Positions 2,874 to 57,700 of a stretch of 64,000 nt of DNA are shown in pieces. The notes beneath the pieces were generated by a model. The model saw only the letters and a list, made by a program, of their open reading frames with translations, did no database searches and was not told where the DNA came from. The translations under genes and the position numbers were made by a program. Within the stretch, counting starts at the first letter, position 1; each line of letters begins with the position of its first letter. The stretch is from Azolla caroliniana (lineage: Eukaryota > Plantae > Polypodiophyta), in the NCBI GenBank assembly GCA_043228905.1, contig JBHGNT010000002.1:9982001-10046000 (forward strand), in the 5' to 3' direction.

Positions 2874-2876
<3 letters not shown>

Positions 2877-2939
<63 letters not shown>
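2877..2939. repeat. (GA)n microsatellite inside LTR
   Basis: Pure AG run of about 30 units. Confidence 0.95.
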
Positions 2940-2943
<4 letters not shown>

Positions 2944-17257: not shown

Positions 17258-17287
17258 TTTCTGCAGCAGCCCGCTCTGATACCAAAT

Positions 17288-22426: not shown

Positions 22427-22820
22427 TGTAGAAACGAATAGCGTGCGGAAGCAATAGAAAACCGAACATAGAAACGCAGGTTTAATGGAGAGCTTGACAA
22501 TACGTGGGAGAGACAGAGAAGGAGCAGAACAAGTTAAATCTATTTCAAAACTACAATAGTTCTTTGTACATTAAATGTGCTCAACAACACTATTTATACA
22601 AGTCCTAAGAGGACTGACAGAAGTACGATGTACTTCAATGCTCACTCGAGTGTTTGACACTAACTACGAGACTATTAACTACCTAGTAGTCTACGCTACT
22701 ACTAGGCTTCCGGTTATTGTTTGATCCAACTAACCGTATCCCTAGCTCACCGGCTCGCCGATCCGTCTCACTGATCCGGCTCCATCCTTCTAGATGCCGA
22801 TCCGGATCCGGTTGAGCTTG
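22427..22820 (-). mobile_element. Copia-type LTR (about 10 terminal bp lost), related to the solo LTR at 31660
   Basis: Its reverse complement shares CAAGCTCAAC, GAGCATTGAAGTAC, CTTGTATAAA and CAAGCTCTCCATTAAACCTG with 31660-32046. CGTAG at 22422-22426 and 27848-27852. Confidence 0.8.
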
Positions 22821-22876
22821 CCGCCCCCTCCGGCCCCGTAGACGGAAGTAGGCGGGGTTTCAGTTGAGCACCGAAA

Positions 22877-23303
22877 TCATGGTATGCCTTACCGGCTCTA
22901 ACTTCTGATCCCGGCCTGATGCAGGAGGATGAGGCTAGTGAGCTTGAACCGGTCCAGTTAGAAGACAAAGGGTTCGAGACTTTAGATATGAGTCCGGAAT
23001 CATTTCGGTTGAGCGGGCCGAACGAGCGGTTGAATCGGGATGACCAGTCGGATGAGGAACCGATGAGTAGTGGAGACTCTGCCGTGCTCTCCCTACGCAA
23101 GGAACCTAGGAGACGGTTCACGCACAAAGAGAAGGGGAAGAAGAAGATGACAGAATACGAAACCGGCAACGTTGAGTCGGATTGGAGCGAACCCAATTTT
23201 GGTAAGGAAAAAGGAGGATCTTCGGGAACGAAGTCCGAATCAGCCAAGAAGGGCCTCAAACCGGGTAATGATAAATTACGCGGGTCTTCCCGTAGAAGAA
23301 CCC
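22877..23303 (+). pseudogene. Fragment of Copia INT-RT linker (D family)
   Basis: SFRLSGPNE..SSGDSAVLSLRKEPRRRFTHKEKGKKKM matches 35630-35694 and 47244-47460. Confidence 0.8.
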
Positions 23304-24841
23304 CGTGCTCCATCCTCCACCGTAAGCGCCTCCTTTAGTCTCCGGACCGACTCCACGTGCTCCATCCTCCACTCAAAGCTACGCCCCTTTTTCAATAGTC
23401 CGTAGAGGGGTTCCGCGACATGTGCGTAGTGTGGGATCTAGATGTGGTAGAACGCGCATGCACCCAAGAATCTGTGGACCTCCGTAACCGACCCGCAATC
23501 GTTCCTCATCGCGGAGATGGCCTCTACCTTTGTCGGAGACGGTTTCCTACCATAAGGCCCGCACAGGTGTCCGACCACCAAGATCTCCGACTGCCCGAAC
23601 GCCGATTTTTCTCCAGAGAAGGTGAGTCGTGCGCTCTCGAGCTTCTGCAGCACCTTCTCGCAGTCGTTGATGTGGTTCATGACGAACCTCCGGCATCCGT
23701 CTAGCCTGACAGTCTCGTTCGCATCTTCCATCGGACACCCCTTTATCAGGATGTCGTCCAAGAATGGCATGGTGATGTCCAGGATGCAGTCCCTCAGCAC
23801 CTTGTTAATTGCGTTCACCATATGCGCCACCGAATTCGTCCCACCTTGTGGTAGGGTACACATCCATACTAGGCCGAGAGGAGTTCGCATCGTCGTGATA
23901 TCCCTACTCTCCACAGCTAGCTGGAACTGGTCATACCCTGAGTATAAGTCACCGACCGAATAGATCGACCTTCCAGCGAAGGCCTCCGCGAACTCGTCTA
24001 TGGTCGGTCTGATTCCTGCATTACGGATGGTCACCCTGTTGACTGGTTGCAGGTCCTGAATGAAGCGCAGCGTGCCGTTCTTCTTCGGCACCATAAACCA
24101 CCGATTCGAGTACGGGGCACTTGACGGTTCGAGGATGCCCATCTCCACCTTTTGCTTCAGAAGCTCCATCAACTTCGGGATGTGAGCTTTCGGCACCGGA
24201 ATCGGTTTGAGATTCCATGGTACATGCGGTACTGTGAAGATCACCATCGGTTCGACGATCGTTGGGTCCACGCACCCGATCTCCTATGGCGAGAACGCAA
24301 AGCCTTTCCCATGCCCTCCAAGCATTCTCCGAAACCTATCCTCCTCCGTCGGCAGTAGAAAGCCACCCCCACCGACCTTGAGCTCCCGTAGCGTTATGTC
24401 GGTGAACCGGTGCCCTATGCCAGCCGGATTCCGTAAACATAGGTCAAACGCAACCCCTCTTATCCGCTCCTCGTTGCCCTCCGACAAGGGTGCCGCGACT
24501 GGCCTCACCTTCCGGTCCAGAGTCTTGTACTTTGTATCCACGCGGGCCGTCCAATCCGACCCGATCCTTTCCCCGAAGTCCGCGATGACTTCGTACATTC
24601 CCATCAAACAAACCGGAATGGTCCAGTCTTCTCTAAGGTCTTCACCGATCACCTTTCGCAACTCGCCCAAGGTGTTGTCAAAAGAGACCACCTCCATGGC
24701 GCCGTTGATTTCTTCGTCGGGGGAGAGGACTCCGCATCCCCTGAGCCGCTCCTCTGCTTGCTTCCTCTCCCGGCCGTTGACGCTAGTTATAGTACAACCT
24801 CCGTTTTCGGAGAACCAAAACTTCCTACCTACTGTACATGT

Positions 24842-24907
24842 GTGGGGTTCTTCCGGTACGTCTGGACTACTGCGGCCCCACGCCTTGATAGCCCTCTCTA
24901 AAAATCC
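24842..24907 (-). promoter_or_regulatory. Putative -1 programmed ribosomal frameshift signal (PR to RT)
   Basis: G GAT TTT directly before the TAG of the PR ORF, a 6-nt spacer, then a predicted two-stem pseudoknot. The -1 frame is open into the RT frame. Confidence 0.7.
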
Positions 24908-26827
24908 CCTCGGCTGCCGCCGCCGAGGGTCTCGCGATTCCTCTCATGGTTCGGACGTACGGTCATGAATTGCACGGAATGCCGACCGTCTTGGCTCTTG
25001 ACGCGCGCGTACGCCGAACCGTTGTCTAGCACCTTCGTCAAAATGTGTGCTGCCATAATGTACGGTTCGCCGAGAATCACCGGGTGCGAGGATGTTTCCT
25101 GCACGAAGAAATGTTGATCTATCTCGACGTCACCAATCTTTACGCGTACATTCTGGCACACATCATGCAGCTCCTCCGTAGCACGCGTCGCCGCGCGTAT
25201 CTTCCACCCATGCTTGGTGTTGATCGGCCATTTACCCTTCTTGTAGAAATCCATGGACATCAGGTTGATTTCAGATCCATGGTCTACCAAGGCCACCATC
25301 GGTTCAAGAATGTCACCAATCCGCACAGGGGTTTCCGTAGTTGCCCTGGCCCAATGCAGCTTCGCGTAGTGGCTTTCCGCCAACTCGTCTTCTAGGGCCG
25401 TGTCTTCTAAGTGCGCAGTCCGCACCTCCACCGGCTTCTCCGGTTCTGGCTCCGTCGAGAGCCTCTTCCGCTTCACCAAGTCTACGATGGAGTCGTGCAA
25501 CTCCCTCTTGGCGATTCCCAGCACCTCCCGCAACGACAGCTCCACTTTACTGTCGAGGATCCGCTCTTCAAGGACTTTCCGTAGGTCCGTTGCTCTCTCG
25601 ATTTCGGTGCTCAACTGAAACCCCGCCTACTTCCCTCTACGGGGAACCGACCCCTCCGGCCTTTCCTGCCCGTTTGTCTTTCACCAAAACCTGGTAGTTC
25701 TGGCAAGCGGCTTCTACAAAGCCCGTTTTCTCTTCGACCGGATCATCCCATCCGGTGACCTCCTCAACCCGTTGTTCCGCGTGGTCCGCCTCTTCCTTCT
25801 TCAATCGAACTCCGGAGAGGCCTTCTAGCACTAGCGACCAGAATCCGGAGTCCTTCGCCTTTCGGGTCTCATCACCCCCGACCCGAATTCCCGCCGACAC
25901 TGAGTAGCAAACAGCTTCTACATGCCGTGTCGTGGCCTCTTCCATCAACCTCTTCATTCCGTCGCGCCCTGTATTCAATTCTGAGGCTCTCCGGGTCTCA
26001 CTCGCGTGCACCCGTCCATTCCAGAGGTACACCACATTGGTCCTAAGTGCGTCGGCGAAATCCGCGCAATCCTTCCGAATGTGACCAATCGCGTCACACC
26101 ACATGCACTGCTGCCAAGCCGGCGGCCTCCGGTCGCGAGGTTGTTCGCCGCTATCTCTCCGGGCCTGTGCGATCTGCAGGTCGCGCACCATTTGTGTCAG
26201 CTCCTCCAGAGCCACTCCTCCGGATGGGCCTTTGACCACGTCATTCGATGCCGAATCCGACTCCAGCCAAATTCGGGTCTCTTCCTTCCTTCCGGCTGGC
26301 ACCGATACCTGCTCCTGGAGCCTCCTCGCCGGGACCGGTCTTGACTCCGACGAGCTTTCGTCTCTCCACTCGCGCCATTTGTCGAAACGGCTGCAGACCC
26401 GTTTTACCACGGCCCAGTCTTCCGTGAGCCCTTCGTCCGTCTCCAATAGGGGACCCACCTTTTCCCTGTCGAGCGCGTCCACCGACTTGACAAACAGTAG
26501 TACTCGACTCGTTTCGAGCACGGTCCGGTCCAGCGTCGACAGCCGCACGAATCGTTTTTCGAACTCCTGGAGGAGCGCCGACGTGTTCCTCCCTTTTCCG
26601 GGGCTTTCCACCCACGCCATGAAGTCTCGCCTCGACAGCCAAAGCGAGTCATCAAACCCGTACTTCTCGAGGAGCTACAGCTCGAACTCCTCCCAAGTCT
26701 GGCATCCGGCCAGCACCTCGAGCACCTCCGCGTGGATGCTCAGCGTCACCACCCGAGGGAATCCGAACAACCGCCTGTCCACTGGGATATCCCTCATGAT
26801 CATTTCGGCCCGGTAAGCCTCCAAATA

Positions 26828-27167
26828 ACTTGTGGGATTCTTCCCACCAAATCGGCCTATGCTACCGATGATCGATTCAATGGCTCTGTCGAGGGTACTC
26901 GTCCCCTCGCGAGCGCTCACCAGCCGGTCGACGGCTACCGCCATTGCCTCTGCTAGCTCCAATCCCCTCATCTTCTGACTCCTTTGCCGCATGTTCACTT
27001 GTGGGATTCTTCCCACCAAATCGGCCTATGCTACCGACGATCGATTCAATGGCTCTGTCGAGGGTACTCGTCCCCTCGCGAGCGCTCACCAGCCGGTTGA
27101 CGGCTACTGCCATTGCCTCTGCTAGCTCCAATCCCCTCATCTTCCGACTCCTTTGCCGCATGTTCAC
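26828..27167. repeat. 169-bp tandem duplication of the gag start
   Basis: ACTTGTGGGATTC...GCCGCATGTTC occurs twice with a period of 169. Confidence 0.92.
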
Positions 27168-27180
27168 GTCAGGTTCACCA
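27163..27180 (-). promoter_or_regulatory. Primer-binding site complementary to tRNA-Trp
   Basis: Plus strand TTCACGTCAGGTTCACCA versus the plant tRNA-Trp 3' end TTCACGTCGGGTTCACCA (recalled from memory; 17/18). It lies 4 nt from the LTR, and the gag ATG follows at 27161. Confidence 0.8.
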
Positions 27181-28052
27181 ATTATGTCGCGAAGTTTCGC
27201 GTTCACGTGTAGGAAGAGGCGGGACCACAGGGGTCTTGGACCAAGGAGAGAGTGAGAGAGAGAGAGAGAGGGAGAGAGTTGCAGATACACAGAAAGAAAA
27301 AAAAAGAGCAAGAAACAGGAATCCGGTCACTATAATCAGTAGCTTACAACTCGAATAGTTACAACTGGCAATCCGGTAATGGACCTGACACGGGGTCCTA
27401 CTCACGGACACGTACGATAGCCACACGACTCAAAGAAACAAAAAGGGGGAAGGGGAGAGAGAGAGAGAGCCTCTGCTGGAAGCACACGGGTTGTCCACGA
27501 AGCAGAGACAACGAACGACGATCGGAGGAGAGAGAGAGAGCTCGGCCCTCGGTTCTGCAGCAGCACTTCGTCCTCGCCAACGCGCGATACCCTTTCTTCC
27601 TTCTCTCCTTCCTTAAAAAGTTCACCGAGGGGAGACCCTTCTCCCCTAGTCAAATCGCTTTATTCCCTGTCCCTTTTGATAGAGACACTCCCAAATCCCC
27701 TAATAAAGGTGTACTACCTAGTATTTACATCAGCCGACCTAATTATGAATTATGTACAAAATATCAATTATCGCGTCCACCCATGTAAGAGCCGGTTCAT
27801 GCGCCTTTTTCTCCGATTCCGCCTATGGCCGGTTTTCTTCACAACAACGTAGTGAGAGTAGAGAACAAAAGAACAAAAAACTGATGAGAGTGAATTGAGC
27901 TCTGCATGTAATGAAATAGAAGAAGCTTTTTGGTTTGCTACATAGAGGTAAGTCTCCTTCCCCCTTTCTTTCTATCTTGAGCACACTAATGATCTAGCAC
28001 ATCACGATCCGTTGTGCACAAAGAAGAGCCGGAGCGCCTTCATAACACTTTT

Positions 28053-34874: not shown

Positions 34875-36180
34875 AACGTGAGCATTGGAGGAAGTCGTTA
34901 CTTTGTAACCTTCATCGATGACTACACTCAGCACACTTGGGTGTGCTTGATCGAAAAGAAGAGCGAAGTCTTCTTCTGTTTCCTGAAGGTGAAGAGCCTT
35001 GCTAAACGGGAAACCGGCAGAAAATTCAAGTGCCTAAGGTCCGATGGCGGAAAGGAGTACTTTTCCGACCAGTTCTCGAGTTTTCTACAGAAGGAAGGAT
35101 TTCGGTGAGAATTCTCTTGCAGATACACACCGGAGCATAATGGTGTGGCCGAGCGGAAGAATCGGACCATACAGGAGGTAGCACGGGCAATGCTTGAGGA
35201 GAAGCATATGTCAAACTTTTACTGGGCTGAAGCGGTTCAGACAGCCGTCTACCTACAGAATCGGACAAATGCAAATGGACGAGTGTCGCCACATGAGTTG
35301 TATTTCGAGAAGAAGCCAAACTTGGCACACTTGAGGGTTCGATAGCATAGCATATGTCCATGTGTCGAAGGAGAAACGAAGGAACCTAGACGCGAAAGCC
35401 GAGAAGTGCATTCTCGTGGGCTACTCAGATGAGCAAAAGGGTTATACGTGTTATAACCCCCGAACGAAAGAGGTCCGAGTAAGCCGAGATGTCGTTTTCG
35501 ACAAGTCGGTGTCATGGTACTTGCCCTCATCTCCAACCCTCAACAACTCCATTCCTATCTTTGAGGACAACGTCAATGAGGCTGAAATGCCTCCAGAAGA
35601 AGAAGGAATTAGAGCTCAAGAAGAGAGTATGATCTCATTCCGGCTAAGTGGACCGAATGAGTGACTGAGTCAGATCAACTTGTCAGATGAGGAGTGTTGG
35701 CCAGAGTATGGTCTGGAGGACAAATATGGAAAGGAAGGAGTCAGAGTTGAATATTATATTTAGAGAAATAATTAGTTAGAAATATTATAGGAACGAGCGG
35801 ATCTAGAATAGTTGTACCGATCCGGATCCGGACCGATTCATAGTTGGTAGCCGATAAGGCACCATTTTGTATTCCCAACTGGAGGCCTATAAAAGGATGG
35901 GAATCAATGTAATAGCTAGCAGAAGTAATACAAGTTGGAGTTTTCATTTAAGAGCATTGTGTTCCTTGTCTACTTGCCATTTTGTGCTTTCATTCTCTAT
36001 CTTACGCGTGTTCTAATTAAACGGTTGCTCATTACCCCAAACCGGAACGTATCCGGAATCAGTCAGATTAGAATCGGATCGGTGTCGGATAACATCATTC
36101 CCATAAATACCTCTTTGGTGAAGTGTTCTGGAAGGACACCTTGTGTTTGTGGCTAGTCCAGCCCAGGATAAACATAGTTT

Positions 36181-36193
36181 TGGTGACCACAAT
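36181..36193 (+). promoter_or_regulatory. PBS, probably tRNA-Arg(UCG)
   Basis: TGGTGACCACAAT versus the expected TGGCGACCACAGT (recalled tRNA sequence; two transitions), 6 nt after the LTR. Confidence 0.6.
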
Positions 36194-36211
36194 TCCTACA
36201 AGGTGCAACGA

Positions 36212-39200
36212 ATGACGGGGAATGGATGACTAGACCGACCAACAACCCAGTCACCGAATGAGCAAGAATACTAGCCGAGAGACTACGGAGGGGGGAGGCC
36301 TACGAGTAGGCGGCCAAGGAGATCCAACAAGATCGGTCTTTTCACATAGATATTCGGCAAGTCACGGAGGAGACAATCTAGTCACAAAACCAACAACATT
36401 CAGACGAAGGCAGTAGTCTCAGCAGTTTACACGACATAGAATTGATACTGCAAACCCTAGCCACGAGCTTCGGGGACTCAGAAACATTTTCCACATTTGA
36501 GTCAAAGTCGAATGACGAACACAACGTCCTTTCAAACTACCAAAGCAGTCACGACACTCCGAACAAACCAGAGGACGACGGTTCAGAGCACACACTGACA
36601 CCATAATCGGAAACGACGTTACCAATATTGCCGGAAAACAAGAGGAATCCGGACCAACAAACCAAGAGGACGGGCAATCGAGTACCAACACCACCAGTGG
36701 ACCGACAATCGGAAGAGAAGAACGACCGTGTACCGACGCCACCACCGGACCGGCAATCAGAGAAAAAGGACAATCGGGTACCAACACCACCCCCGGAACA
36801 ACCTTTAGACGAAGACACCATGCCGTACATGTACCCAAAATACCGGGACAACCCAGATGCAGAGGCACATGTCTATGCCTTCTTACAGACATGGGAAGGT
36901 AACCATGTCTCGCAACGACTGATAGAAGCAGAGGCTGAGCGTTCAAAAATCGCGGAGTTCAGAATGACCAACAACGAAGTGGAATGCAAAGCATCTTCCC
37001 AATAGGTTTTCTACGTTGGATGCCCTAAAGGAAAAAAAAATTCTACTGTTTCACAGATAGGTGGAACAAAGGGAGTTAGTCGGACAATTTTACACGACCA
37101 AGAGGAGGATCTGCGATTCCGCCAACCAGTGCAATGCACCACGTGCCTCAACCTCAAACACTCCACGTTAGAATGCACAATGCGGACTCAGTGCATATTG
37201 TGCCACTCCCAGTCACACACTATAGACCGGTGTGAGTACAATTTGTTAAATCGGCAAGCGGCACCGGTCCAACATATTGAGCGTCGAAGTGAGCTACGAC
37301 TAGACAAGGATCCAGTGGATGAACGTTACCACCCGGAACATGGTGATCGGTATGAGGACAGAAGAAGAGACGCCTACGACCAGGATCGCTATGAGCGCGA
37401 TTACTCCCCGGATTATAACCAGCGAAGGGATGATAGAAGGTACCCGAAATGGCGAGCCTACCAAGACCAAGACAAACGAAACCCGGAATGCCAAGGGTAC
37501 CGCAATCACCGACGCAATTAGAACCGTAGGGGCAATTTTCGCCGAGATGAGCGTCGTGAACAGGCCCGGGAATACCATCGGGAACCGGATATAAACATGG
37601 CCACTATCCCACAACCAAAGCAACGGAGACCGGAAGATAGCAATCGGATGAATCCCGGTATCCAACCTAGAAAAAAGGGAATCAAGAAATATCCAAAAAG
37701 TGTACTGCTACTATTGTCAGAAGGAAGGCCATTATAGCACCTAGTGCCTAGTCACGTCTAATGTGAAACAGCCGACAGTGAACATGGTGACCGCAAAAGT
37801 CATGGATGTATAGCAAGTCACCACCCGATCGAAAGGGAAAGCTGCAAAGTGGGAGACCCAAGAGGCAATCTGAAAGCAGGTTACCGAGTGGATATAGAAG
37901 GCCAATGAACGGAATGTGGCCGAAGTAAAAGAACAGTCCAAGTTTCCAGCGGAACCACTCGAGACCACAGATGACGACCCAACCTGGCAAGCGTTGCAAC
38001 AATGCCAGATTATGTTGCCTCTAGGCCGCCTATTACAATTGGTTCCTCATTTACAGTAGGCCTTAAATTGGCATTACCACCACAGAATCCAGAGCCGGCA
38101 CCAACATTCTTTTCCAATCCAGAGGACGGACCGGTCGTAGTGGACACAAGTAGTCTAGCAATCACGATGATAATCAAAGGAAGCGAGATACTCAGAACCA
38201 TTATTGACGGAGGTTCCGGTGTAAATGTAATCAAGCAACGAAGTAGGGATCAACAAATGGGAGTCGTGCTCATTTTGGCTACGAATGGCAAACACTAGTT
38301 CGGCCCGGCCAACCGGACTCATCCAGGACCTCGACATTACAATCGAAGGCCAAGCGTTCTGAATCTCCGCAATGGTACTGCAACTCAACGCACTAGGGCT
38401 TACCCCCTATTATTAGGACGACCATGGTTGCTTACGGCGCATATTAAGCAAACTTGGCAAAAGAACGTGATTACCTTCCAACGAGGGAAAACTAAGGTGC
38501 GGGTGTCGACACAACAACGGGTTGGTACAACTAAGCAGCTAACGCCACAATACACAGAGAGTATTAACATGCTGGATGGATTCTCAGATGACGAAGTCGA
38601 CCGATATCTAGAGGAACACCCCAAGATTGTGTCGTTATTTGAAGTAGATGTAGTCGAAGCCGTCACGTCATACGTCACGCACCAGGAGGATGAATTGGAC
38701 GAGCCGGATCAGGAGGCAGTTCGGGAACTACGATAGGCACAAGAATCACTGGAGAGGGAAACGGCAGTATCCGAAAGAGTAAAGGTATCGAAGGTAGAAG
38801 AAGTCAACCTCGGGACACGGGAGGCACCGAGACCAGTAAATGTGGCAAAGGAAATGCCACCGAAATAGAAAACGGCAATGGTGGAGCTACTCAAAGAATT
38901 CCAGGATGTTTTTGCATGGTCATATGAGGATATGTGAGGGTTGGACCCCCAGTTGTACCAACATCAGATCCATCTGAGTAAGGATGCAAAGCCGGTAGCG
39001 CAACAACATTACTGAATGAACCCAAATTACGTAGCAAAAGGAAAGGAAGAAATTGATATGATGCTAAGAGTCGGTTTTATCCAACCAATAAAACAAGCCA
39101 TGTGGTTGAGCCTGATAGTTATTGCACCAAAAAAGAACAGAAAAATTCGGGTTTGTGTCGACTATCGAAAGCTGAATGCGGCCACGTTGACTCACGCTTT

Positions 39201-41640
39201 TCCTCAACCATTCACAGACGGGGTATTAGACACGGTCACCAGTCACAAAGTGTACAGTTTCTTGGACGGATTCATCGGATAATATCAAATTCGGATGCAC
39301 CCAGCGAACCAGGAAAAGACGGCGTTCGTCATGGAGTGAGGAGTGTTTGTCGTAGTGGTCATGATGTTTTGACTAAAAACAGCATCGGCGACGTTTCAAA
39401 TAATCATAATGGAGATATTTGGAGAATACATCTCGACTTTTATGCAAGTATTTTTGGACGATTTTGCAGTCTATAGATGACAGGAAGATCATTTGAACCA
39501 TCTCTGGATGTGTTTGGAAAAGTGTCGGGGATCCTGACTAAGCCTCAATCCGGCAAAATGTGTTTTTGGGGTAACAAGCGGGGCACTACTCGGACACATC
39601 GTCAACAAGGATGGAATTATTGTAGACCCGGAAAAGGTAAAAGCAATCTTGCAACCACCAATGCCAACCAACGCCAAAGCATTGAACCAGTTCTTAGGAC
39701 AGATCCGGTGGCACAACCGAACGCTTTGATACCTAGCAGACTTCGCAACTCCATTACATGCAGTTGTGCACTACATACCCTTTCAATGGACGGAGCAAGA
39801 AGAGAAAGCGTATCATGCATTGAAAGTGATGCTGTCACAAGCTACGGTAGTGCAACCTCCTGATTGGACGAAAGATTTTCATGTGTTCGTTGATGCGTCA
39901 AACATAGCAATCGGGAGTGTCCTCATGCAGTTTACCAAACCAAAGTGGTACCATCCGATATATTACGCGAGCCAGAAACTCTCAAAAGTTGAACGGAATT
40001 ACTCCACAACAGAAAGAGAAGCTCTAGGGATGGTATATAGCGTCACAAAGTACTGCCACTATCTGTTAGGGGGCGAGTTTTCATTCCATGTAGACCACTT
40101 GGCACTAATCTATTTGGTATCCAAGGCATCATTAACCAATCAGGTCGCGAGATGGACACTCCTACTACAAGCGTTCAAAGTTGAGATCTACCACCGACCG
40201 GGAGTATAGTATAGCATGCGGTGGCCGACTACTTGAGCCGGCTAGAATCTGGCGAAGCAAGGGACGGAGTCCGACATGAGTTTCCCGATGCCGAGCTATT
40301 CAAGGTTATTGCGGAGATGGTTGTAGATGAGACAGTGGCTGGAGAAGATAAGTGGTTCACCGACATGCACTAGTTCCTGAGTACCGGATTACCTCCGGAA
40401 GAACTCAGCCAGCATGAACGGAAACGCCCTGTTGTCCAAAGCCGACACTTTTGTTTAGTGCAGGATACAGTGTACCATAAGGGAGCTAACGGTATTTGGC
40501 GATGTGCGGTGCGGAGTGACGAGAAAGAAGCAATCTTACGAGAGGCGCATCGCGGCGTTGCTGGCAGGCACTATGCCGGAGATGCCACCACCCGGAAACT
40601 TTGGCGAAGTGGGTTATGGTGACCGACAACCCTCATGGACGTGGTTTGGTATTGTAAAGAGTGCAATCTATGCCAACAATTGGGCCAACCAACGAAGCAG
40701 GCTTAGATGCCCCATCAACCAGTGTTGCCATTGGAACCTTTCTAAAAGTGGGGGTTAGACTTTGTGGGACCATTTACATCGCCAACAATGTGTACGGGGA
40801 ACCGGTATATCATAGTGGCCACCAACTATTATACAAAATGGGTGGAAGCAAAAGCGCTCCAGGACAACACCGCGACGTCAACAGCTAAGTTTCTATACAA
40901 GTACATATGGTGCCGGTACAGGTGCCCGATTGAGCTGATTAACGACCATGAAGGAAATTTCCTCGGCCACGTGGTGGAAAGCCTAACTTCCTTCTATGTA
41001 GTAGTGCATAAATGCAGCATGCCATACTACCCGCAGGCAAACGGATTGGTGGAGTCAACAAATAAGACGCTCCAAAACATCCTCCGGAAGATTGTAAATA
41101 AGAACCCGACGAATTGGGACACCAAACTACACAGCGCGATATGGGCATATAGGACGGTGTATAAAACGAGTATCCAGACAACATTGTTCCGGTTGGTATT
41201 CGAACTAGAGGCGGTAATGCCCATGGAGTTTCAGATCCCCAGTTTACGGATTCAGGTTCGGAAGCGATTGAGTGAGAAGGAATCCGAAATAATCTGGTTG
41301 GCAACATTATGTGAATTAGAGGAACAATGGATAACTAGTGTGTTGCAATTAGAGCTCAAGCAACGAAGATGGAAAGCTTTTGTGGATCGGCACAGGAAAG
41401 GCAATGAGAAGAACTTCAGCATAGGCAAGCCAGTATTGGTATTCCAGACCCGGATGGGCAGTGTTCTGGACCTGATCATTCTGGATTACAAGGGAGTTCA
41501 AAGGGTCTTACCAACTCGGAACACTAGCCAGCGAGGTACTGGACAAATGGATCAACGGGTTCCGTATAAAGCTGTATAAAGGACCGATGCCGGAGAACCC
41601 TTTTAAGGAACTGGAGGAACGGCAGGAAACCGGAGGAGAA
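36212..41640 (+). pseudogene. Gypsy F gag-pol, degenerate
   Basis: Knuckles CTTCLNLKHSTLEC, CILCHSQSHTIDRC and CYYCQKEGHY; protease IIDGGSGVN; RT VDYRKLN and FLDDF; RH VFVDAS; INT YYPQANGLVES. Confidence 0.9.
36670..36800 (+). repeat. 48-bp in-frame repeat x about 3 in gag (RVPTPP.DRQSE.K)
   Basis: Peptide repeat visible in ORF 36628..37005. Confidence 0.85.
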
Positions 41641-42085
41641 GCAGTAGCTGGGGAAAGTCTGATGACAACGGAGCCGGTACAATTGGGTACAACGGAGACC
41701 TAACGACGCTTGGTACAGCGCAGTACCTTATGTCGTACATTTTTCAAAAAAAAGAAAGATATCATGCAGAGGCCAGGAGCAAAAGGATATGATGAAAAGT
41801 GGCATGCGGGGAGATATCATTCGCAATTTTAAACGAACACAATGAAAAGGTGTGACATCGGCCATTTAAAGCGCACCACGTGCCATACTTTACTATTATG
41901 GTACACGACGTGCATGCATGGGAATAAAGAAGAATACGTAGTGGCTGCGAATATGAGTTTCATATGGCAAGCACAAGATCTTGAGAGCACAACAGAGCAC
42001 TTAGGCTTCTAGATGAGCACATGCCATCAATAGAACCCAAGCACCCACTCGCAGCAACGAAGTCGACGAAGAGTTTACAAAACTG

Positions 42086-44950
42086 ATGGCACTTTCGACC
42101 GCCACCAGAGATTGGCTCAGCAAGAAAGGCCTTGAAGGATTCATCCGGGTAGCTGATGCCCCACCACACGAAGAACCAGAGAAGGTCTCAACAATGATCA
42201 ACCTCGACGAAATCTCTGAAGGCATAGTGTAGGCGCTCATCGGGTTACCTGCCGAAGGCCTATGCTGCATTGAAAACCCCTCCACAGAAATCTTGACCGA
42301 CTAATTTGGGGAGTACTCTATAGCAAGAAAAGTTTACCGGACATAGGGAGGTGAGAATCCCCTATTCCGGGAAGTAGCTCGTGTCTTATTAGAGTATGGA
42401 TTTGTGCACCCTCGACCACTGGCCATGCTGAGAACATGGACGAATTTATCATTGCAACATTCGAAAGGCTCAAGGTGAACTAGCCGGTGATTGTGGCCTA
42501 CTCGTTATGGGCAGGAATAGCGTTCGTAATGGATGGGAAGAAAGCATGGGGCGGATTAGCACAATGGCTAACAATATTGGTACCCCCAACATGCGTCATC
42601 AAGCCAAAGAAGCGAGCCCGGTCGGAAATCACACCCAACAAGTCCTCCAAATGGGAGCAACTCCTAGCAAAACACACCCCCAGATGGAAAGCAAGAGACT
42701 CGTCTCGACAGGAAGAAGAAGCGTTGGTGAACCGGAGGCAGGAACCTGTGGAGAAAGTTCCGAAAAAGACGGTGAAACCAATCAAGATAAAGCTGCGACG
42801 GCATGATAGAGACTAGGAGCAAGGTTGTTAGGTACGTTAGGTACAGTACAGATACCATACGTATATAACGTATTAATACGCATATAGTACCTCCCAATTT
42901 AAAAATACGTTAAATATGTTTTCTTAATATGTTAAATACTTATAAAATACGTATTTTACATATAGTACGTTACATACTTCTACAATTTGAAAATTATTTA
43001 CCTTTCTAGAAAATATCTCTAATATTGTAAAATACATCTATGTTTACACAATTTTGTGATGTACAATATAGTTCTACATCCTAAAATGCATATAAGACAT
43101 TTGAACATTTCATATCCTAAAATACTTGCAGTAATATGGATGTCGACATTCCCTTATTCTATAAATCAATGTAAGTGTGTATCACGATGTTCTATTTCAA
43201 ATTGTAATTATTTACAATTATGCCTTCATAGATTGAGGAATCGTCTACGATTATCACACTCATGATAGGTTTCTCTTTTCTTCGTTTTCTTCTTCTTCTT
43301 CTTCTTCTTCTTCTTCTTCTTCTTCTTCTTCTATCTTCTGCAATCATCACACTTAGAGTCATGACAGGTTTATGTCTTCTTTTCTCTCTTCTTCTTCTTC
43401 ATCTTCTTCATCGTCGTCTCTTCTATTCTTCTTCCTTCCTTCCTTTGGCTTCTTTTTCACTAAAATCTTTTTTTTTCTTTTGGTTTTTGTTGGGGTTTTA
43501 CTTACATTTTCTTTATAAATATGTATTATACCTATTTTTTTATAAATACGTTAAATACCGTATTGGACAAATGTACATGATATTTGACTGAACAACATTG
43601 AGGTATAGTACGTACTATACAAATGATGAGGGACTATATGTATTTAAACGTTAAATACGGGTACTTAAACAACCATGACTAGGAGCAACTGGTACAAATG
43701 GTAAACCAAGAAACCGCGGAAGAGGAACCTGTCGAAACCCTCCAGTGAAGCTCACGGAAGCGCGATAGTGAGCAGCAAGGGGAAGGATTGGGTCCGGAGA
43801 AGGACAATACACCGATTCCCCGCTCAACGGTGTTGGAACCCATACTAGAAACGGAGCCAGCTAACATATCAGAAGCGGTGAAGACGGTTCAAACTGAACT
43901 AGAATTAGAGAGACATACATCACCGGGTCTTTTAATGCAGCAACAAGAAGAACGCCAGCCAAAGCAGACACTACAGCAAGAAGAGTTGTTTGCACAATGG
44001 CTCAAGGAGGATGACGAACTGCGACCGGAGCCAGTGCAGCAGTTCGTTGCACTCACACAACATGGAACCTGCATACAATGGTTAGAATGGCTTGGCAAGC
44101 AAGTATCCGGTGTGGCTAACGGGATGGATGACGAACAACGGGTGGAGCGGAGACAAGTGGAACGGTTGCCAACAACAACTGAAGAATTGGAAAAAGCCCA
44201 AAATCAGATTCGGAGCCTAGAGGAGGAGTTGGCAAGGGCTAAGGAGTTCGGGGTCCTTATGTCAAAGATGGGCCAAAGCACAAGCTCTGGAACAGAGCCG
44301 GTAGAACCGGCTAATCTACAAAAGGAAGCTCTGGAAACGAATGCCCAAGTAGAGGCCAACACAACCCTGGTAAAAGACGTTGAGCGGGAATAGGAAATGC
44401 TAACAATAAGGGAGGAATTAGCCACTCAAGAAGCATTGAGAGAAAGAGAAAAAGTGCAGAAGAAGACAACTGAAGAAGAGAAATGGAGAGTTGAAGAAAA
44501 TCCCTGAAAAAGTCAAGCAAACAATGATCAGTTGAAGGAGGAAAGAGAAAAGTTGTTGTAGGAAAAAGACAAGCTCCGGAGGATGGCCGAAGCAGAGAAA
44601 AGAGCAGCGGCAATAAACATCAACGATGAGGAATAGTCTACGGAACCACAACCACAATCGCAGTCGGAAGAGTAGTTGAACCAATAGCCGAATGAAGTCG
44701 GAGTGGAGCTGGTACGAAACAAACGGAAGAAGCTGAGACGGAATAGCTAGAGCAAGTTGGAAATGGAGAGAATGTGGGAGCCAAAGCAGGACAAGAACAT
44801 CATTAGCCGGAAGGGGTCAGAGAACAGCAGCAGCAACAAAGTGAAGAACCGCTCGAACCCTTGGATCAGAGCATTTTGGACATACTTGATGAGGAGTGAT
44901 GGAGCTAACCCGTGGGTTCGACATGCAATGCACTGTCCCACGAGTGTGCC
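42086..44950 (+). pseudogene. Additional sense ORF of Gypsy F (split by a hAT MITE), with acidic and coiled-coil-like C-terminus
   Basis: MALSTATRDWLSKKGLEGFIRVADAPPHEE..; KPKKRAR; PIKIKLRR; EELEKAQNQIRSLEEELARAKE. Confidence 0.78.
42820..43677 (+). mobile_element. Non-autonomous hAT element (MITE, 858 bp), 8-bp TSD ACTAGGAG
   Basis: TIRs CAAGGTTGTT / AACAACCATG; TSD at 42812-42819 and 43678-43685; subterminal TACGT motifs; internal (CTT)n. Confidence 0.9.
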
Positions 44951-45270
44951 ATGTGTTGGCCAAAGTATGGTCCGAAGGACAAATGTGGAAAGGGATGAGT
45001 CAGAATTGAATATTATATCTAGAGAAATAATTAGTTAGAAATATTATAGGAACAGGTGGATCCGGAATAGTTGTACCAATCCGAATTTGGACCGATTCAT
45101 AGCCGGTAGCCGGTAAGGCACCATTTTGTATTCTCAACCGAAGGCCTATAAAAGGATCCGGGAATGAATGTAATAGCTAGCAGAAGTAATACAAGTTGGA
45201 GTTTTGATTTAAGAGCATTGTGTTCCTTGTCTACTTGCCGTTCTATGCTTTCATTCTCTATCTTACACGT

Positions 45271-46421
45271 TGTCGTGAAGATCCGTCACTACGCGCGGAT
45301 CGTGAGGCGGAACCGTCGGGGTTCTGGACCGGAAGGATTCAAAGTCGGTACAAGCTTTGGCGCAAGCTTTAGCGAGAAAGTACTTAAGATAGATTGGGAA
45401 AGAGAGAAGTTGAGATCACACGATTGAGAGAGATTGATTGAACTTTTAACTTTAGATTTAAGAAACAAGTTACACGATCAATTTGATAACGAATTTCTTC
45501 CTCTTAATTTTCATAAAAAAACGTCTTTTTTTTCTCCTCCCCCTTCCTTCTTTTATAGATGCTCTCATGCATATGATGCATGTGAGGGTACAAGACATGC
45601 ATAAATTGCATGTTTGCCATTTGGCGCTTATGTATTACATGTGGTGCATGATAACCATGTCACTCATTTTAGCTCTCATGTATGAGAATTTACATGTAGA
45701 AGTACAATGATAGAAATATAATTTCACCTAAATAGCATGGCTTAATGGTAAGCCAATTGACTCCTAACTTGGAGGTGCAAGGTTCGAATCCTTACTTGCC
45801 CTCCTTGTATATGTATATATGTATATATATTTATATATTTATTTATCTAGTCGCCGGTTCGTCGAATGCCGTCGGTTACCGATGCCATCGCCGGTTGCCG
45901 CCGGATGCTGTCGTCTCACCAACGCCGGATACCGGTGCCGCCGGAAACCGGTGCTGCCGTCGGTTACCGGTGCCCCGCCGGATGCCGTCGTCGGATACCG
46001 GTTTGCCGCCGGATCACCGGCTCCATCGCCGGTCCGGTTTTGGTTGGCCAAAACCCTTTACGGGTAGCTAGCCCACCTCCACTCTTAGTTCAAGTTACCT
46101 TGAACTCTCTATGCTCCACACATAGACACAAAGATAATATCTTTTGCTCTACCTTATGTATGATGAGAGCCGTATTTGTCGTGTCTATGTGGGATATCTC
46201 ACAATTTTCTCTTTTCCTTTCACAAACTTTATACCCTCATATCTTGACATTTAGTTGTTCGTTTCTCGTGTAATAAAGTGCATTCGAAACCTCCATCATT
46301 TTGTACTTAGATATTAAATTTATTTAAAATGTTATCTTCACAATTATTGTATTATGTGATTCATACTCGATTTCGTACGTTTTATGGGATTTTCACACTA
46401 TTGCCGAAAATCTTCACGACA
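45271..46421 (-). mobile_element. Solo LTR X (1151 bp) of the TGTCGTGA/Trp lineage, 4-bp TSD ACGT
   Basis: TGTCGTGAAGA...TCTTCACGACA; ACGT at 45267-45270 and 46422-46425; U5 motif shared with 27185-27245. Confidence 0.82.
45731..45802 (+). other. tRNA-derived Pol III cassette (A box and B box) inside solo LTR X
   Basis: TGGCTTAATGG at 45738-45748, D-like stem GGCTT/AAGCC, loop CTCCTAA, GGTTCGAATCC at 45781-45791. The acceptor stem does not pair. Confidence 0.65.
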
Positions 46422-46425
46422 ACGT

Positions 46426-47070
46426 TGTCGTGATGTGGTGTGTTTAATGCGAGAAAAAGTGAAAATTTGAGGATACATGCACATTACACAAATACTTGTA
46501 AAAATGAAAATAATAATAAATAAACCTAGGACATGATGGTACTAAGTGCATATTGAGGGTTGCAAGTAAGATTTGAACCTTTCACGTCTAAGATAAGAAA
46601 CAATTATCATACCTCTAAAGCTACTACTACATGCTTTACATTTTGTATATTTTCTTTTCATATTCAGTATTTCATAGGTAGCAAATAGGCAAAAACCGTA
46701 TACACAAAACCATGGTTTTAAGCCCATGGTTTTGTGCATGTCATAAGCAAAACCGTGTCCACAAAACCATGGTTTTGTGCATGTCACAAGCATGGAGAGA
46801 CCTATAAAAGCCTCTAGTTGGGCTTGTGTATAGGGGGGGGCTCAATATGTGATATCACCAACACCACAACATCAATATAATTATATTCATCTTTATCTTC
46901 TTCATATTTTTCTACTTCTCAAGTGTACAATCTTTCTTCTTCTCAAGTGAACAAATTTCATCCAATCTTACATTGATCATCATCTCTTCGATAATTCCGC
47001 GAACGTCCTCCCTAGTCCAAGACCCCGGTGGTTGCTTGAGTAACACACGCACGCACGAATCTTCGCGACA
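46426..47070 (+). mobile_element. Solo LTR Y (645 bp), same lineage, flanks ACGT/TCGT
   Basis: TGTCGTGATG...TCTTCGCGACA; TATAAAA at 46803; GTCCAAGACCCCGGTGGT matches the Trp-Gypsy U5. Confidence 0.8.
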
Positions 47071-49480
47071 TCGTGTTCTAATTAAACGGTTGCTCATTAC
47101 CCCAATCCGGAACGTATCCGGAATCAATCGGATTAGAATCAGATTGATGTCGAATAACATAATTCCCCTAACCACCCGTTTGGTGAAGTGTTCGAAAGGA
47201 CACCTTGCGTTTGTGGCTAATCCAACCCAGGATAAACAAGGAGATGGCGAGTAGTGGAGACTCAGTCATGCACTCCCTACACAAGGAACCGAGGAGACGG
47301 TTCACATGTAGAGAGAAAGGGCAAAAGAAGATGCTAGAATACGACATCAAGAGGGAAGAGTCAGATCGGAGCGAATCCGACTCCGGAAAGCATGAAGACG
47401 GACCTCCGAAGAAGAGGTCGGAGTCGGCCAAAAGGGCCATCAAATCGGCAGAGTAGAAATTGCGTTGATCTACCTACCAGAAGCACCCCGTAGTTCGATA
47501 CAGATACGAGTATATAGCGCATCACTATGCGTACATGACAAAGGTGACAGAAGTGCGTGAGCCGGAGAGCGACGCGGAAGCGGCAAAAGACACAAATTGA
47601 CGTGTCGCAATGGAGGAAGAGATGCACGCGCTCATGGAGAATGAAACATGGGACCTGGTTGATGCACCGAAGGGTGCATAAGCGACCGAATGTTGGTGGG
47701 TGTACAAGATCAAGTACAATGCCGATGGCTCCATCAACCCGTACAAAGTCTGGTTAGTGGCAAAAGGCTACGTGCAACAACACGACATCGACTACAATGA
47801 GACATTCGTGCCGGTTGCGAAGATGACGACCGTCTGTGTCCTGCTCACAGTAGCTATAGCAAAGGGGTGGCACTTACATCAAATGGATGTCAAGAATGTG
47901 TTCTTGCAAGGTGAGCTTGAGGAACAGGTATATATGGTACAGCCCCCCAAATTTCAGTCCGGAATGAACACGTCGGTTGTTTGCCTACTGAAGAAGTCCT
48001 TCTACAGACTCAAGCAAGCCTCGCGGGCCTAGAACGCAAAGATCACGTAGCGACTGCATCGGATGGGGTTTGCCACTTCGAAGTCGAACTCTTCACTTTT
48101 GATCCATCGGGGTCAGAACGGGTCGGTTAGTTGATGATTTAGTCATCGCCGATGCCGACCAAGAAGAAATCGGCTGCGTCAAGTTCTAGCTAGCGGAGCG
48201 GCATCATTGGACATGAAGGATTTGGGGGGCCTTCATTACTTCCTCGGGATCGAAGTGATGCGCACCCCGGAAGGCATATTGATCAACTAGCAACATTATG
48301 TGTTGAGTATGCTCTTCAAGTTTAGAATGACAGAGTGCAAATCCGTCTCAACTCCTTTGTATAGGAATATGGAGCTTCACCCCGACTCCTAAATGGCATG
48401 CGATCCAAAATGGTTCTGATAGATAGTCGAAATCCTTATATATTTGACCATCACGTGGACGAACCTCAGCTATTCGGTCGGCCTGATTAGTCAATTCATG
48501 GCACATCCGATTGTAGAGCACCTTCAGTGTGTGCAACGAATACTTAGGTATGTCAACGGCACCAAGGACCAGGGGTTGCTATATCGGCTTGGAAACGTCG
48601 GACAGTTAGTCAGCTATACGGATGCCGATTGGGAAGGAAATTCCGGCGACCATAGGCCTACATCCGGATATGCGTTTTCACTTGGATGCGCCACGATCAC
48701 TTGGAGCTGCAAGAAGCAACCAACAATTGCTCCGTCGAGCACCAAGGAGAGGCTATCGTGACATGCAAAGCCATATGGCTCAAGAGGCCATTGAAGGATC
48801 TACAGATGGAGGTGTTTGATCTGACAACGATCTACTGTGACAACCTCAGCGTCATCCAACTTGCGAAGAACCCGTCTTCCACACCCAGACCAAGCACATT
48901 GAGGTGCACTATTCCACGAGCGAGTCCTTTCCGGTGAAGTCGAACTGGTGTATGTTCTAACGAATCGGTAGACTACCAATATCTTCACTGAACCCCTTGG
49001 CCTGGACAAGTTGCGGCAATTCTCGAGTATGTTTGGTCTCCAATACCTCGATACCCCGAACTTGATGGGGAGAGATAGAGTCAAAAAGGAAGATGATGTC
49101 CGGGAAGCCGAATTGGATGACAAATCTGATTTCGGACAGACTAAAGAAGTCGGAATGTTCGAATCGGCTGGAGAAGCTGAGGATGAATGGACATGCGTAG
49201 GAGGATTGGAAAAGTGGAGACTAGTCAAACGAGAGCTGGAACCGGATCCAACCGAGCCAAGGGATGGAAAAACCAAGAAGAGCAAGAGAGGTAGCGAAGG
49301 CCAAGACCAAGACATGGGCAGATGTGGTCAAGGGCCTGAAGGAGGACAAATCAAAGACAACCAATTCCGACAAGAGTTGGAATGAATCGGAGTCAGCCGA
49401 TTCGGAAGAGGTGTTCGATTTGGAGGAGCCGAATCAACTGAAGGCCAAACGGACGAGAAGGCAGCAGAGGAAGGAACAAA

Positions 49481-54700: not shown

Positions 54701-57700
54701 TCATATATTATCACCCAGGGGGGTTCAGCATGACCCCTGAAACCAACAATGGTTACATAGAACTGTCCTTCGTTGTCTAGGTGCCAAAATTTTAAAATAG
54801 TTAAACAAAATGAAAAAAAAAATCTGAATTGAAAAATTAAGAATGTTTCCTAATTTCAGTTTTTTCAGACCTTCAATGAGTGTGGCTCTGTTATCGAGTA
54901 GATAAGCAACGAGCATCCCTGGTGTCCTTGGCAGTGGTTCTGTTTTAATCAGGATTCTTGAAAGCTACTAAAATCATGTAGGAGTTCTGGAAAATCATAC
55001 ATGAAGTCCTCACATGTGAGGCATTCCAGAGAGTTCATACCCAAGTTTTTACTTGGGGTGATGGGGTAATGAGATTATAGAGAGAGTTGGCAGAACATCC
55101 ATTGAGAGTTGATTGTGATTTCATGGTGAGCCTAGAAAGAAATGGTAAGCCATGGACTTTAAACATTTGTGGGTCGGTCTATTGGAGCACGATCATGTGT
55201 CTGAGAGAAACTCAGCTGGCAACTGGTTCGTAAAAGTTGTTCCATGAAGACAATATCAAACATACAATCCCTACATATGCCTGCCATTAGTGAAATAGGT
55301 AAAATACAATGCTTGTGGGACAGTTACTAATAAAGAATGGCAGTATATTAATGACCTGGGTGGGGGGTAAATATGACCCATGTGACCAATAATTGTTATA
55401 AAAAACACTCCCCTCTTGCCATCTAGGTGCGGGATTCTAAATGGGGTTGGACAAAAGCAAAAGGCAAATTTAAGCTCATTTCTAGATTTCACATCTTGGA
55501 TCTCCCTCAAGTTTAGCTCTATGGTCAAGTGGAGAAGCAAAGAGAATTTCTAGTGTCATTGACAATGGTTTATTCTTGCTAGGATGCATTGAAGTCTGGT
55601 AAACCTTTTAGGAGTTCTTGATAATCATGCCTGTTGTAAAGAATTCCAAATCAATATATTCCCTTTTTTTGCTACGTTGAGGTATGTTGCCTCATTGACC
55701 TCTCGTTTTCAAGGTCGAAATCTACAGAGGACATTGTTGTGAAGAATAAGTATGCTAGCTGCTTGGATTACCTCATTCAACCCTTCTCTATTCTTCCATA
55801 GAAAGCCATGCAATTCCAGCTCGTAACTCTTGATGGATTTAATGATGTGCTTGTGTATTTCTATGCTTCGGTTTTGTTCTTCTGTGCTTCATATGCTTGG
55901 TGTCTTTTTGCTTGTGTGAGATATCTATTCATGGTGGTTTAAGTACCCGTATTTAACGTTTAAATACGTATAGTACCTCATCATTTGTATAGTACGTACT
56001 ATACCTCAATGATGTTCAGTTAAATATCATGTACATTTGTCCAATATGGTATTTAACATATTTATAAAAAAACAGGTATAATACGTATTTATAAAGAAAA
56101 TGTAAGTAAAACCCCAACAAAAACCAAAAGAAAAAAAGATTTTAGTGCAAAAGAAGCCAAAGGAAGGAATAGAAGAGACGAAGATGAAGAAGATGAAGAA
56201 GAAGAAGAAGAAGAAGAGAGAAAAGAAGACATAAATTTGTCATGACTCTAAGTGTGATAATCGCAGAAGATAGAAGAAGAAGAAGAAGAAGAAGAAGAAA
56301 ACAAAGAAAAGAGAAACCTATCATGAGTGTGATAATCGTAGACGATTCCTCAATCTATGAAGGCATAATTGTAAATAATTACAATTTGAAGTAGAACTTC
56401 GTGATACACACACTGATTTATAGAATAAGGGAATGTCGACATCCATATTACTACAAGTATTTTAGGATGTGAAATGTTCAAATGTCTTATATGCATTTTA
56501 GGATATAGAACTATATTGTACATCACAAAATTGTGTAAACATAGATGTTTTTTACAATATTATAGATGTTTTTTAGAAAGGTAAATAATTTTCAAATTTT
56601 AGAAGTATTTAACGTACTATACGTATTTTATAAGTATTTAACATATTAAGAAAACGTATTTAACGTATTTTTAAATTGGGAGGTACTATATGCGTATTAA
56701 TATGTTATATATGTATGGTATCCGTACCATACCTAACATACCTAACAACCTTGGTTCTATTCTTGGTGATGAAATACCTTGTGTAATGGAAATAGGCCTT
56801 GGTATTGCCTATTATCATGGATCAATCTTGGTCTACGATCAGTGTGCACATAATGAGAACATTGCATATCTCATATCATTAATGCTTGTTTGCTTAATGG
56901 TTCCATGGTCATGTGACTGTAATGCTTTGTGGATCCTATTGTATTGTTTAATGCTATGCCAATAACGAAAAAAGAATGAGAGAGCTAATTGAATGCAAGG
57001 TAAATTTAAATTGAAAATTTCATCAATTTCATTAGCTTTCTATGGTTTCTTTTGGATGCATGATTAAGATATGTTTGTTGTATTGTGTTTTTTCAGAGTA
57101 GAATAGCCCTGTTCAATAAACTTTTCTTATATAACAACCTATACAGATTCATTTTCATTACTTCTTGACGTTCTCAAGGGAAACTGGGATTTATTTCATG
57201 GTCAGAATTAGGCCCATTGCATTAGATTTCATAATATTTCTAAAGTTTCTCTTGTAGGCATGTTCATATTCAAGGTAACCCAAAGAGACTCTATTAATTA
57301 TGAAGAGATTCAAGATCTAGTGATACAAATTGGGATTCAATATTAAAATAGAAATTTTTGAAGTCAATGATGATTATCTCTATTGTAACAAGTTACATAA
57401 TTATTATGTAAATTCAAGCAATATGGGCTACTCAAGTGCTTCTTAGGTAATGCCAGAACCACTCATAAGAGCATAGCTATAAGTACTGTTGCTGATTTTT
57501 GTTGAGTGTGTTAGAACTACTCACATCTAGAGGAATGGCACGCTAACATGTATGTACCATGACTTTATCTATGCACAGATTGTTTGCAGGATGTCTCTTT
57601 CTGGCCTGTGCTTGAACTTTCAATTACCTTAAGCTTTATCTGCACGCTGGCTTTACCAACCTTTGAATTTGTGCAGGCAATCGCCATACCTACCATTCTC

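What the first reader, a model, noticed from the sequence alone, without database searches (positions are those of the whole stretch)
45267..47074. Sequence-targeted integration: three LTRs of one lineage at (A/T)CGT, two stacked at the same base
Seen: ACGT|LTR X|ACGT|LTR Y|TCGT, i.e. two different solo LTRs in opposite orientation sharing one 4-bp target inside the Gypsy F LTR. The Trp-Gypsy LTR ending at 27846 is also followed by ACGT. All three have TGTCG(T/C)GA...TTC(A/G)C(A/G)ACA termini and share a U5 motif like GTCCA.GA.CCCC.G.GGT. Every other matched LTR TSD here is 5 bp and unrelated. Inference: this integrase makes 4-bp TSDs and prefers CG-centred ACGT, which is both the G-box/ABRE core and a CG methylation site.
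Basis: partly seen in the sequence, partly recalled or inferred. Interest (0 to 1): 0.72.

Follow-up and report, generated by a model that had tools for sequence, protein, structure and literature searches.

The report
CG-targeting retrotransposons stacked at one site
Two leftover end-pieces of related plant jumping genes sit side by side on one four-letter target because this lineage almost always lands on a CG pair and copies it, so a second element likely landed on the copy made by the first; the CG habit and such double insertions are both already described.

Summary
Observation confirmed: ACGT|LTR X (minus)|ACGT|LTR Y (plus)|TCGT inside an older Gypsy LTR whose partner LTR shows the empty site. 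X, Y and Z are separate high-copy families of one Gypsy lineage with a tRNA-Trp primer site, no chromodomain and no extra RNase H. Of 71 independent insertions, 63 have a 4-bp NCGN target, 7 a deaminated form, 1 neither. The target is NCGN, not ACGT (13 of 63), and not a G-box. This is the published signature of the Phygy clade (4 bp, NCGN, tRNA-Trp), described in moss and reported in ferns; tree membership could not be tested. Twelve such stacked junctions exist genome-wide, between different family pairs. That exceeds a CG-only model (p=0.003) but not one weighted for preferred 4-mers (p=0.14), so no special re-use mechanism is needed; double insertion at a preferred site is known from Drosophila. 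Target CGs decay as methylated CGs do; whether methylation guides insertion is untested. The scan noted a Phygy-like pile-up elsewhere in this genome and NCGN targets in a fungal genome. Side finding: four composites joined tail-to-tail under one outer duplication.

The parts
45267..45270 (.). Left copy of the 4-bp target, ACGT
   Evidence: empty partner LTR has one GCGT at 36006-36009
45271..46421 (-). Solo LTR X, 1151 bp; family of 8.3-kb elements with Gag (DUF4100), RT, RNase H, integrase
46422..46425 (.). Shared middle copy of the target, ACGT, between the two U3 ends
46426..47070 (+). Solo LTR Y, 645 bp; the full copy examined is 3.5 kb with no Pfam domain in its long ORFs, likely non-autonomous
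47071..47074 (.). Right copy of the target, TCGT (one change at position 1)
44954..47238 (+). Host: 3' LTR of an older Gypsy element (35695-47238, 5-bp duplication AGGAG), interrupted by X and Y
35695..36174 (+). Host 5' LTR, about 90% alike, with the empty site GCGT at 36006-36009
27185..27846 (-). 5' LTR Z of a 3'-truncated element of the same lineage, followed by ACGT at 27847-27850
27163..27180 (-). Primer-binding site of Z, complementary to the 3' end of tRNA-Trp(CCA)
22768..26674 (-). Z internal region in several frames: Gag with DUF4100 (24901-25626) and RT (23441-24283); no integrase found

Best explanation
X and Y are solo LTRs of two families of a Phygy-like Gypsy lineage whose insertions duplicate a 4-bp target centred on CG, and the stack likely formed when a second element landed on the target copy left by the first, each then likely shrinking to a solo LTR by recombination between its own LTRs. 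Shown: 4-bp length, near-absolute CG centre, lean to A at the first and T at the last base, independence of the families, twelve stacks genome-wide. Inferred: the integrase itself reads the CG (sharp bend at a pyrimidine-purine step plus base contacts); a duplicated target stays a good target, and the LTR's last base supplies the A that is favoured just outside it; local crowding of the lineage does the rest. The order of X and Y is not known.
For: Targets: 63 of 71 independent events have CG, 7 only CA/TG, 1 other; 25 of 25 solo LTRs fit a 4-bp duplication with 0-2 mismatches (13 exact) and none fits 5 or 6 bp with fewer than 3. Genome-wide the terminus motif followed by NCG occurs 9843 times against 247 for the reversed control. 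Stacks: 12 loci with a 4-base spacer, 9 NCGN (7 ACGT) and 3 with CA/TG, control 0, against 1 for spacers 0-3; they join different family pairs, and in 3 besides ours a solo partner shows the same 4-mer on its far side. Neighbour insertions with both targets intact: 4 at spacers 5-34, 1 at 35-64; 9 versus 5 fits the 4-mer-weighted model, p=0.14. T is enriched just outside the target (40 of 100, p=0.003), most on the U3 side (26 of 57), which fits the orientation of the stacks: U3-U3 6, U3-U5 6, U5-U5 0 (read by eye). Related elements with integrases 64-86% identical show 7 NCGN and 1 NCAN at 8 outer junctions. The integrase model matches foamy-virus and Ty3 intasomes. Literature: Phygy NCGN (PMC6317226); double insertion with the duplication in the junction (PMC5932611); flexible YR centres with 4-bp cuts (PMC4422553 abstract).
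Against: Nine intact stacks exceed a genome-uniform model even with the 4-mer weight (expected 2.4-3.3, p=0.001-0.007); the fit needs local crowding, seen as a 4-5-fold excess of same-strand ends within 5-20 kb in only the first 100 of 9843 matches. Counts are small, so a two-fold extra pull towards existing ends is not excluded. The three 4-mers are not identical. The sample is the 30 best-scoring copies per family out of 1339-3001 candidates. No labelled Phygy sequence was on hand. No assay shows that the integrase alone sets the preference.
Confidence: 0.8

Rival explanations
1. X and Y went in together as one joined cDNA dimer (or through one intasome holding ends of two cDNAs), and the middle ACGT is a joint, not a target copy.
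For: The lineage does make such composites: four loci have two members joined at their U5 ends with one matching outer 4-mer, one locus has a U3-U3 joint with a 2-base spacer, and X and Y form chimeric elements.
Against: In those composites the joint consists of the bases that lie beside the LTR inside the element (primer-side spacer, tract end). For two U3 ends that would give TCGA or shorter; none of the 12 four-base spacers is TCGA. Here the spacer equals the left target copy and the empty site has one 4-mer.
Confidence: 0.05
2. The integrase is drawn to existing ends of its own lineage (binding to LTR termini or protein left on them), so targets are re-used beyond what the motif predicts.
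For: 9 intact stacks against 5 neighbours over 60 positions is above a CG-only model (p=0.003) and above the genome-uniform model.
Against: The excess falls to p=0.14 with the measured 4-mer weight of 2.4 and to p=0.38 with an assumed 3.6 that adds the outside base. Stacks are 12 among about 9600 junction-like matches.
Confidence: 0.1
3. The integrase reads methylated CG and so homes into silenced, repeat-rich DNA without a chromodomain.
For: Targets are CG almost without exception; half of the mismatches between duplicate copies (10 of 20) are C>T or G>A at the CG; the change GCGT to ACGT is in both the left and middle copies and fits decay of a neighbouring CG before insertion (one event, inferred); no chromodomain.
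Against: Decay after insertion is expected for any CG next to a silenced element. Flanks are not CG-poor: 4.9% CG against about 5.4% expected from base composition (my arithmetic). ZAM integrase binds and nicks its CG-rich target in vitro (PMC2527525 abstract), in a fly with little CG methylation (recalled).
Confidence: 0.12
4. The element targets the G-box/ABRE core, directly or through a bZIP/bHLH partner.
For: ACGT is the commonest single target: 21 of 88 intact junctions against 4.5% of NCGN background.
Against: 50 of 63 intact targets are other NCGN words, and ACGT is not followed by G more than by T or A.
Confidence: 0.03

Closest known systems
Phygy clade, non-chromovirus Ty3/Gypsy (Neumann et al. 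2019, PMC6317226: passages, section 9, supplementary file 3 read)
   Same: 4-bp duplication, NCGN, tRNA-Trp primer, no chromodomain, no extra RNase H, coding region filling the inside; X elements 8.3 kb within the listed 7.7-10 kb; Gag has named Physcomitrium patens homologs at 30-36%.
   Different: Defined from one moss; this host is likely a fern. Phygy is since reported in ferns (PMC13477047, passage) and a liverwort (PMC12885004, passages). Z elements are 6.8-6.9 kb, below the listed range. Tree placement with labelled Phygy sequences not tested.
TatI (same table)
   Same: 4-bp duplication and tRNA-Trp primer (4 elements listed).
   Different: TatI always carries an archaeal-type RNase H; none was detected here. 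No NCGN preference listed.
Tandem dimers by double insertion in Drosophila (McGurk and Barbash 2018, PMC5932611, passages read)
   Same: Two elements at one preferred site with the duplication kept in the junction, also inverted LTR pairs (two Rover copies around ATATAT); junction motifs match the preferred target better than single sites, as here (7 of 9 ACGT versus 13 of 63).
   Different: Here the partners are different families, reduced to solo LTRs, in a plant.
ZAM of Drosophila (PMC2527525, abstract) and Ginger1 DNA transposons (PMC2836005, passages)
   Same: Gypsy-type integrases with CG-centred targets: CGCGCg for ZAM, whose integrase binds it directly; 4-bp CCGG or CCGT/ACGG for Ginger1.
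   Different: Other hosts and other flanking bases; Ginger1 has no RT or LTR.

Membership tests
Phygy | 4-bp duplication with NCGN | tested here: met
   63 of 71 events CG, 7 CA/TG, 1 other; 25 of 25 solo LTRs fit 4 bp
Phygy | Primer site for tRNA-Trp | tested here: met
   Same site in X, Y, Z copies; 6 of 6 fetched genomic matches are tRNA-Trp(CCA) genes, of 63 matches; 38 of 80 related loci carry it
Phygy | Gypsy domain order without chromodomain | tested here: met
   RT, RNase H, integrase, no Chromo hit in X/Z ORFs or long relatives, while a nested chromovirus scanned alongside does hit it; the integrase ORF ends about 70 bases before the tract in L128
Phygy | No archaeal RNase H, no extra ORFs, 7.7-10 kb | tested here: inconclusive
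   No RNase_H or RVT_3 hit at E 0.1 in lineage ORFs, none in the two spacers by PDB search; X 8.3 kb fits, Z 6.8-6.9 kb is shorter; only long ORFs were scanned
Phygy | Clade membership with REXdb Phygy sequences on RT/RH/INT trees | not testable with these tools
   No labelled reference held. RT tree: X and Z group with Riccia RTs (99/97), far from chromovirus RTs; Gag homologs named Physcomitrium
TatI | Archaeal-type RNase H domain | tested here: not met
TatI | 4-bp duplication and tRNA-Trp primer | tested here: met
   table
Chromoviruses (Tcn1, Galadriel and others) | Chromodomain after the integrase | tested here: not met
   separate on the RT tree
Dimer by double insertion | Target duplication kept in the junction and on both outer sides | tested here: met
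   ACGT, ACGT, TCGT with a single 4-mer at the empty site
Dimer by double insertion | Alleles with one partner only | not testable with these tools
   Public runs are held as short contigs that do not span the site

The most novel reading that the evidence does not exclude
The Phygy-type integrase reads methylated CG itself and uses it, in place of a chromodomain, to home into already silenced repeat DNA; every insertion makes a fresh, soon methylated target at both edges, so the lineage piles up on itself.
Probability: 0.12. Interest if true: 0.7.

Novelty: new member of a known kind. Interest (0 to 1): 0.25.

Why it matters
As it stands it is a good worked example, not a discovery: it extends the NCGN rule from a one-line note on moss Phygy elements to thousands of junctions in what is likely a fern, shows that the CG is near-absolute once decay is allowed for, and shows the stacked sites such a rule produces. 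The paired 4-mers give a ready measure of CG decay. If the integrase proved to sense methylation it would be a chromodomain-free route into heterochromatin, and the lineage's abundance makes that testable with existing methylome and population data.

Tried and rejected
G-box targeting: rejected. X and Y as one element: rejected. Five- or six-base duplication: rejected. A control pattern with GC in place of CG gave 2067 matches, mostly one other repeated word in the 100 rows listed, so it was not used as background. L103 was dropped from the neighbour count because its right side is not a lineage end; with it the count is 6 and p=0.22. Before the event count I dropped 3 window-derived loci and 3 duplicated flanks and merged 6 LTR pairs. 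In one search, 12 of 17 downstream regex hits were set aside by eye as chance matches inside other sequence. The look-up of 10 unnamed protein clusters gave no named moss RT or integrase. Reads: only short contigs, no piece spans the stretch, no single-partner allele could be sought. The integrase model (mean pLDDT 75.5, pTM 0.53) shows no added reader domain, only an acidic low-confidence tail; a conserved Glu three residues after the second catalytic Asp lies near the position of HIV Ser119 by my numbering (recalled, not aligned), but that position sets bases outside the duplication (PMC4422553 section 14), so it does not explain the CG. The host gene search gave one named hit, a fern at 65%: weak. 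Literature searches; NCGN with retrotransposon gave 3 papers, one relevant. The element list and sequences of Neumann et al. were not among the five supplementary files held; they bear on membership. PMC6911290 (passages) gives 4-bp duplications with GC-rich centres and names Phygy; PMC11899658, PMC3276498 and PMC13469084 (passages) added nothing specific.

Full report
Observation. The structure is as described: ACGT (45267-45270), LTR X (45271-46421), ACGT (46422-46425), LTR Y (46426-47070), TCGT (47071-47074). It lies in the 3' LTR of an older Gypsy element (35695-47238, 5-bp duplication AGGAG), whose 5' LTR reads through the point with a single GCGT. X and Y share only their ends and a U5 motif. 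Z (27185-27846) is the 5' LTR of a truncated element, so only one of its junctions exists. Two copia pairs and the host have 5-bp duplications. The window thus gives two independent sites.

The families. Searches of the own genome (523 Mb, a plant, likely a fern on one weak named hit) gave 1339, 3001 and 2745 candidates for Y, X and Z; 40 were scored and 30 fetched for each. All three share one primer site and one polypurine tract, which fix the orientation: X minus, Y plus, so the two U3 ends face the middle ACGT. The primer site matches tRNA-Trp(CCA): 6 of 6 fetched genomic matches, of 63, are such genes. Full X elements are about 8.3 kb and Z 6.8-6.9 kb, with Gag (DUF4100), RT, RNase H and integrase and no chromodomain or extra RNase H in the ORFs scanned. 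The one full Y copy examined is 3.5 kb without a Pfam domain. Named homologs come from Riccia, Adiantum and Ceratopteris for RNase H-integrase and also Physcomitrium for Gag. On an RT tree X and Z group with Riccia sequences (99/97), far from chromoviruses.

The target. Of 108 junctions to flanking DNA, 88 have CG at positions 2-3, 17 have CA or TG and 3 neither; flanking CG density is 4.9%. After removing window copies and duplicates and merging pairs, 71 events remain: 63 CG, 7 CA/TG only, 1 other. All 25 solo LTRs fit a 4-bp duplication (13 exact, 9 with one and 3 with two mismatches) and none fits 5 or 6 bp. Among 29 events with both ends, 10 of 20 mismatches are C>T or G>A at the CG, with the other copy usually intact, so CA/TG centres are decay and not alternative targets. 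ACGT is the commonest word, about five times its share, yet only 13 of 63 events; ACGC (12), CCGT (8), ACGG (6) and CCGG (6) follow. There is no G-box extension. T is favoured one base outside the target. Genome-wide the terminus motif plus NCG occurs 9843 times against 247 for the reversed control; some of these will not be true ends. Related elements in metagenome contigs keep the primer site (38 of 80 loci) and show 7 NCGN and 1 NCAN at the 8 outer junctions that I could recognise.

The stack. An exact search for two ends four bases apart finds 12 loci, ours included: 9 NCGN (7 ACGT) and 3 decayed forms, control 0. They join different family pairs. Spacers of 0-3 give 1 locus, spacers of 5-34 give 34, of which 4 are two true outer ends with intact targets (15 fetched and 11 more, the rest judged from the spacer), and spacers of 35-64 with both targets intact give 1. 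Nine against five over 60 positions is too many if all CGs are equal (p=0.003) but not with the measured 4-mer weight of 2.4 (p=0.14). A genome-uniform model expects 2.4-3.3 (p=0.001-0.007), and the first 100 matches on one contig cluster 4-5-fold within 5-20 kb, enough to close the gap. By eye the stacks are U3-U3 6, U3-U5 6, U5-U5 0; this fits an incoming element turning its U3 end, which favours an outside A (26 of 57), towards the terminal A of the resident LTR. Numbers are small.

Mechanism. Shown: length, motif, independence, decay. Inferred: the integrase reads the CG; 4-bp cutters favour flexible pyrimidine-purine centres (PMC4422553, abstract), the model resembles foamy-virus and Ty3 intasomes, and since TA centres are absent but for one doubly decayed copy, base contacts must add to bending. 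The first insertion doubles the target, the second uses one copy, and each element loses its inside by LTR-LTR recombination (established for LTR elements, recalled). A joined-dimer origin is unlikely here because such joints in this lineage consist of element-internal bases, not the target word. Methylation at the time of insertion cannot be read from sequence; the one hint is that GCGT had become ACGT before duplication.

What is known. Neumann et al. 2019 list Phygy with 4-bp duplications (100%), NCGN and tRNA-Trp (81%), the only plant lineage in their survey with a target preference. TatI shares length and primer but has an archaeal RNase H. Phygy is reported in ferns (PMC13477047) and a liverwort (PMC12885004). 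Double insertion at preferred sites, with the duplication in the junction and inverted LTR cases, is described in Drosophila (PMC5932611). CG-centred targets are known for ZAM and Ginger1. It works like Phygy on every feature tested but the size of Z; membership by tree is open. In my nine searches I found no count of NCGN targets or stacked Phygy LTRs in a fern, which is a small gap.

Verdict. Real, well above chance, and explained by a known lineage trait plus a known way of forming dimers. New member of a known kind; interest 0.25. The open point worth a test is whether methylated CG is read.

Noticed in passing
G000:C3:16772693 (L220/L221), C18:9710231 (L224/L225), C18:15114174 (L226/L227), C17:15463266 (L230/L231): Two members of the lineage, often X-type with Y-type, joined U5 end to U5 end by 9-19 bases made of their primer-side spacers, with one matching outer 4-mer (GCGT, ACGT, CCGT, ACGC): 4 of 7 loci checked; about 10 of the 34 loci have such joints. 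At C18:9710231 both partners are full elements. Likely end-joined cDNAs integrated through two U3 ends, or one intasome holding ends of two cDNAs. One literature search did not turn up this form.
   Followed up: partly
L223:6-7452, L227:4492-5760, L126: X internal regions bounded by a Y-type or mixed X/Y LTR; Y-type LTRs with a swapped U3 start. Suggests co-packaging and template switching between the autonomous and the short family.
   Followed up: partly
window 44915-44953: The host Gypsy element has no purine tract before its 3' LTR; a stretch ending in GCCA sits two bases before the LTR, as in the lineage that other notes of this scan describe.
   Followed up: no
G000:C3:19795526, C11:4059987, C4:17798443: Insertions into the ACGT just upstream of the lineage's own purine tract and into the ACGT inside its own primer site: the element carries good targets for itself.
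   Followed up: no
window 13217-17647 (minus), LTRs 12435-13206 and 17288-18059: Copia element with one open 1476-codon frame and LTRs 99.7% alike, so very recent, nested in an older copia.
   Followed up: no
window 22834-22878 and 25600-25644: A 45-bp inverted repeat, 98% complementary, inside the Z internal region around its RT and Gag frames; unexplained.
   Followed up: no
G000:C8:17796786-17823371, C16:4989495-5105657, C5:10105608-10112201: Clusters and tandem arrays (about 0.9-1.3 kb spacing) of the tRNA-Trp 3' half; the six copies fetched, one from the C5 cluster, are full tRNA-Trp genes.
   Followed up: no
window 42810-43682 and 55925-56763: An 870-bp repeat present twice in inverted orientation, 91% alike, 12 kb apart; not identified.
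   Followed up: no
window 57563-60739: Exons of a DEAD-box helicase gene, the only host gene seen among the long ORFs.
   Followed up: partly
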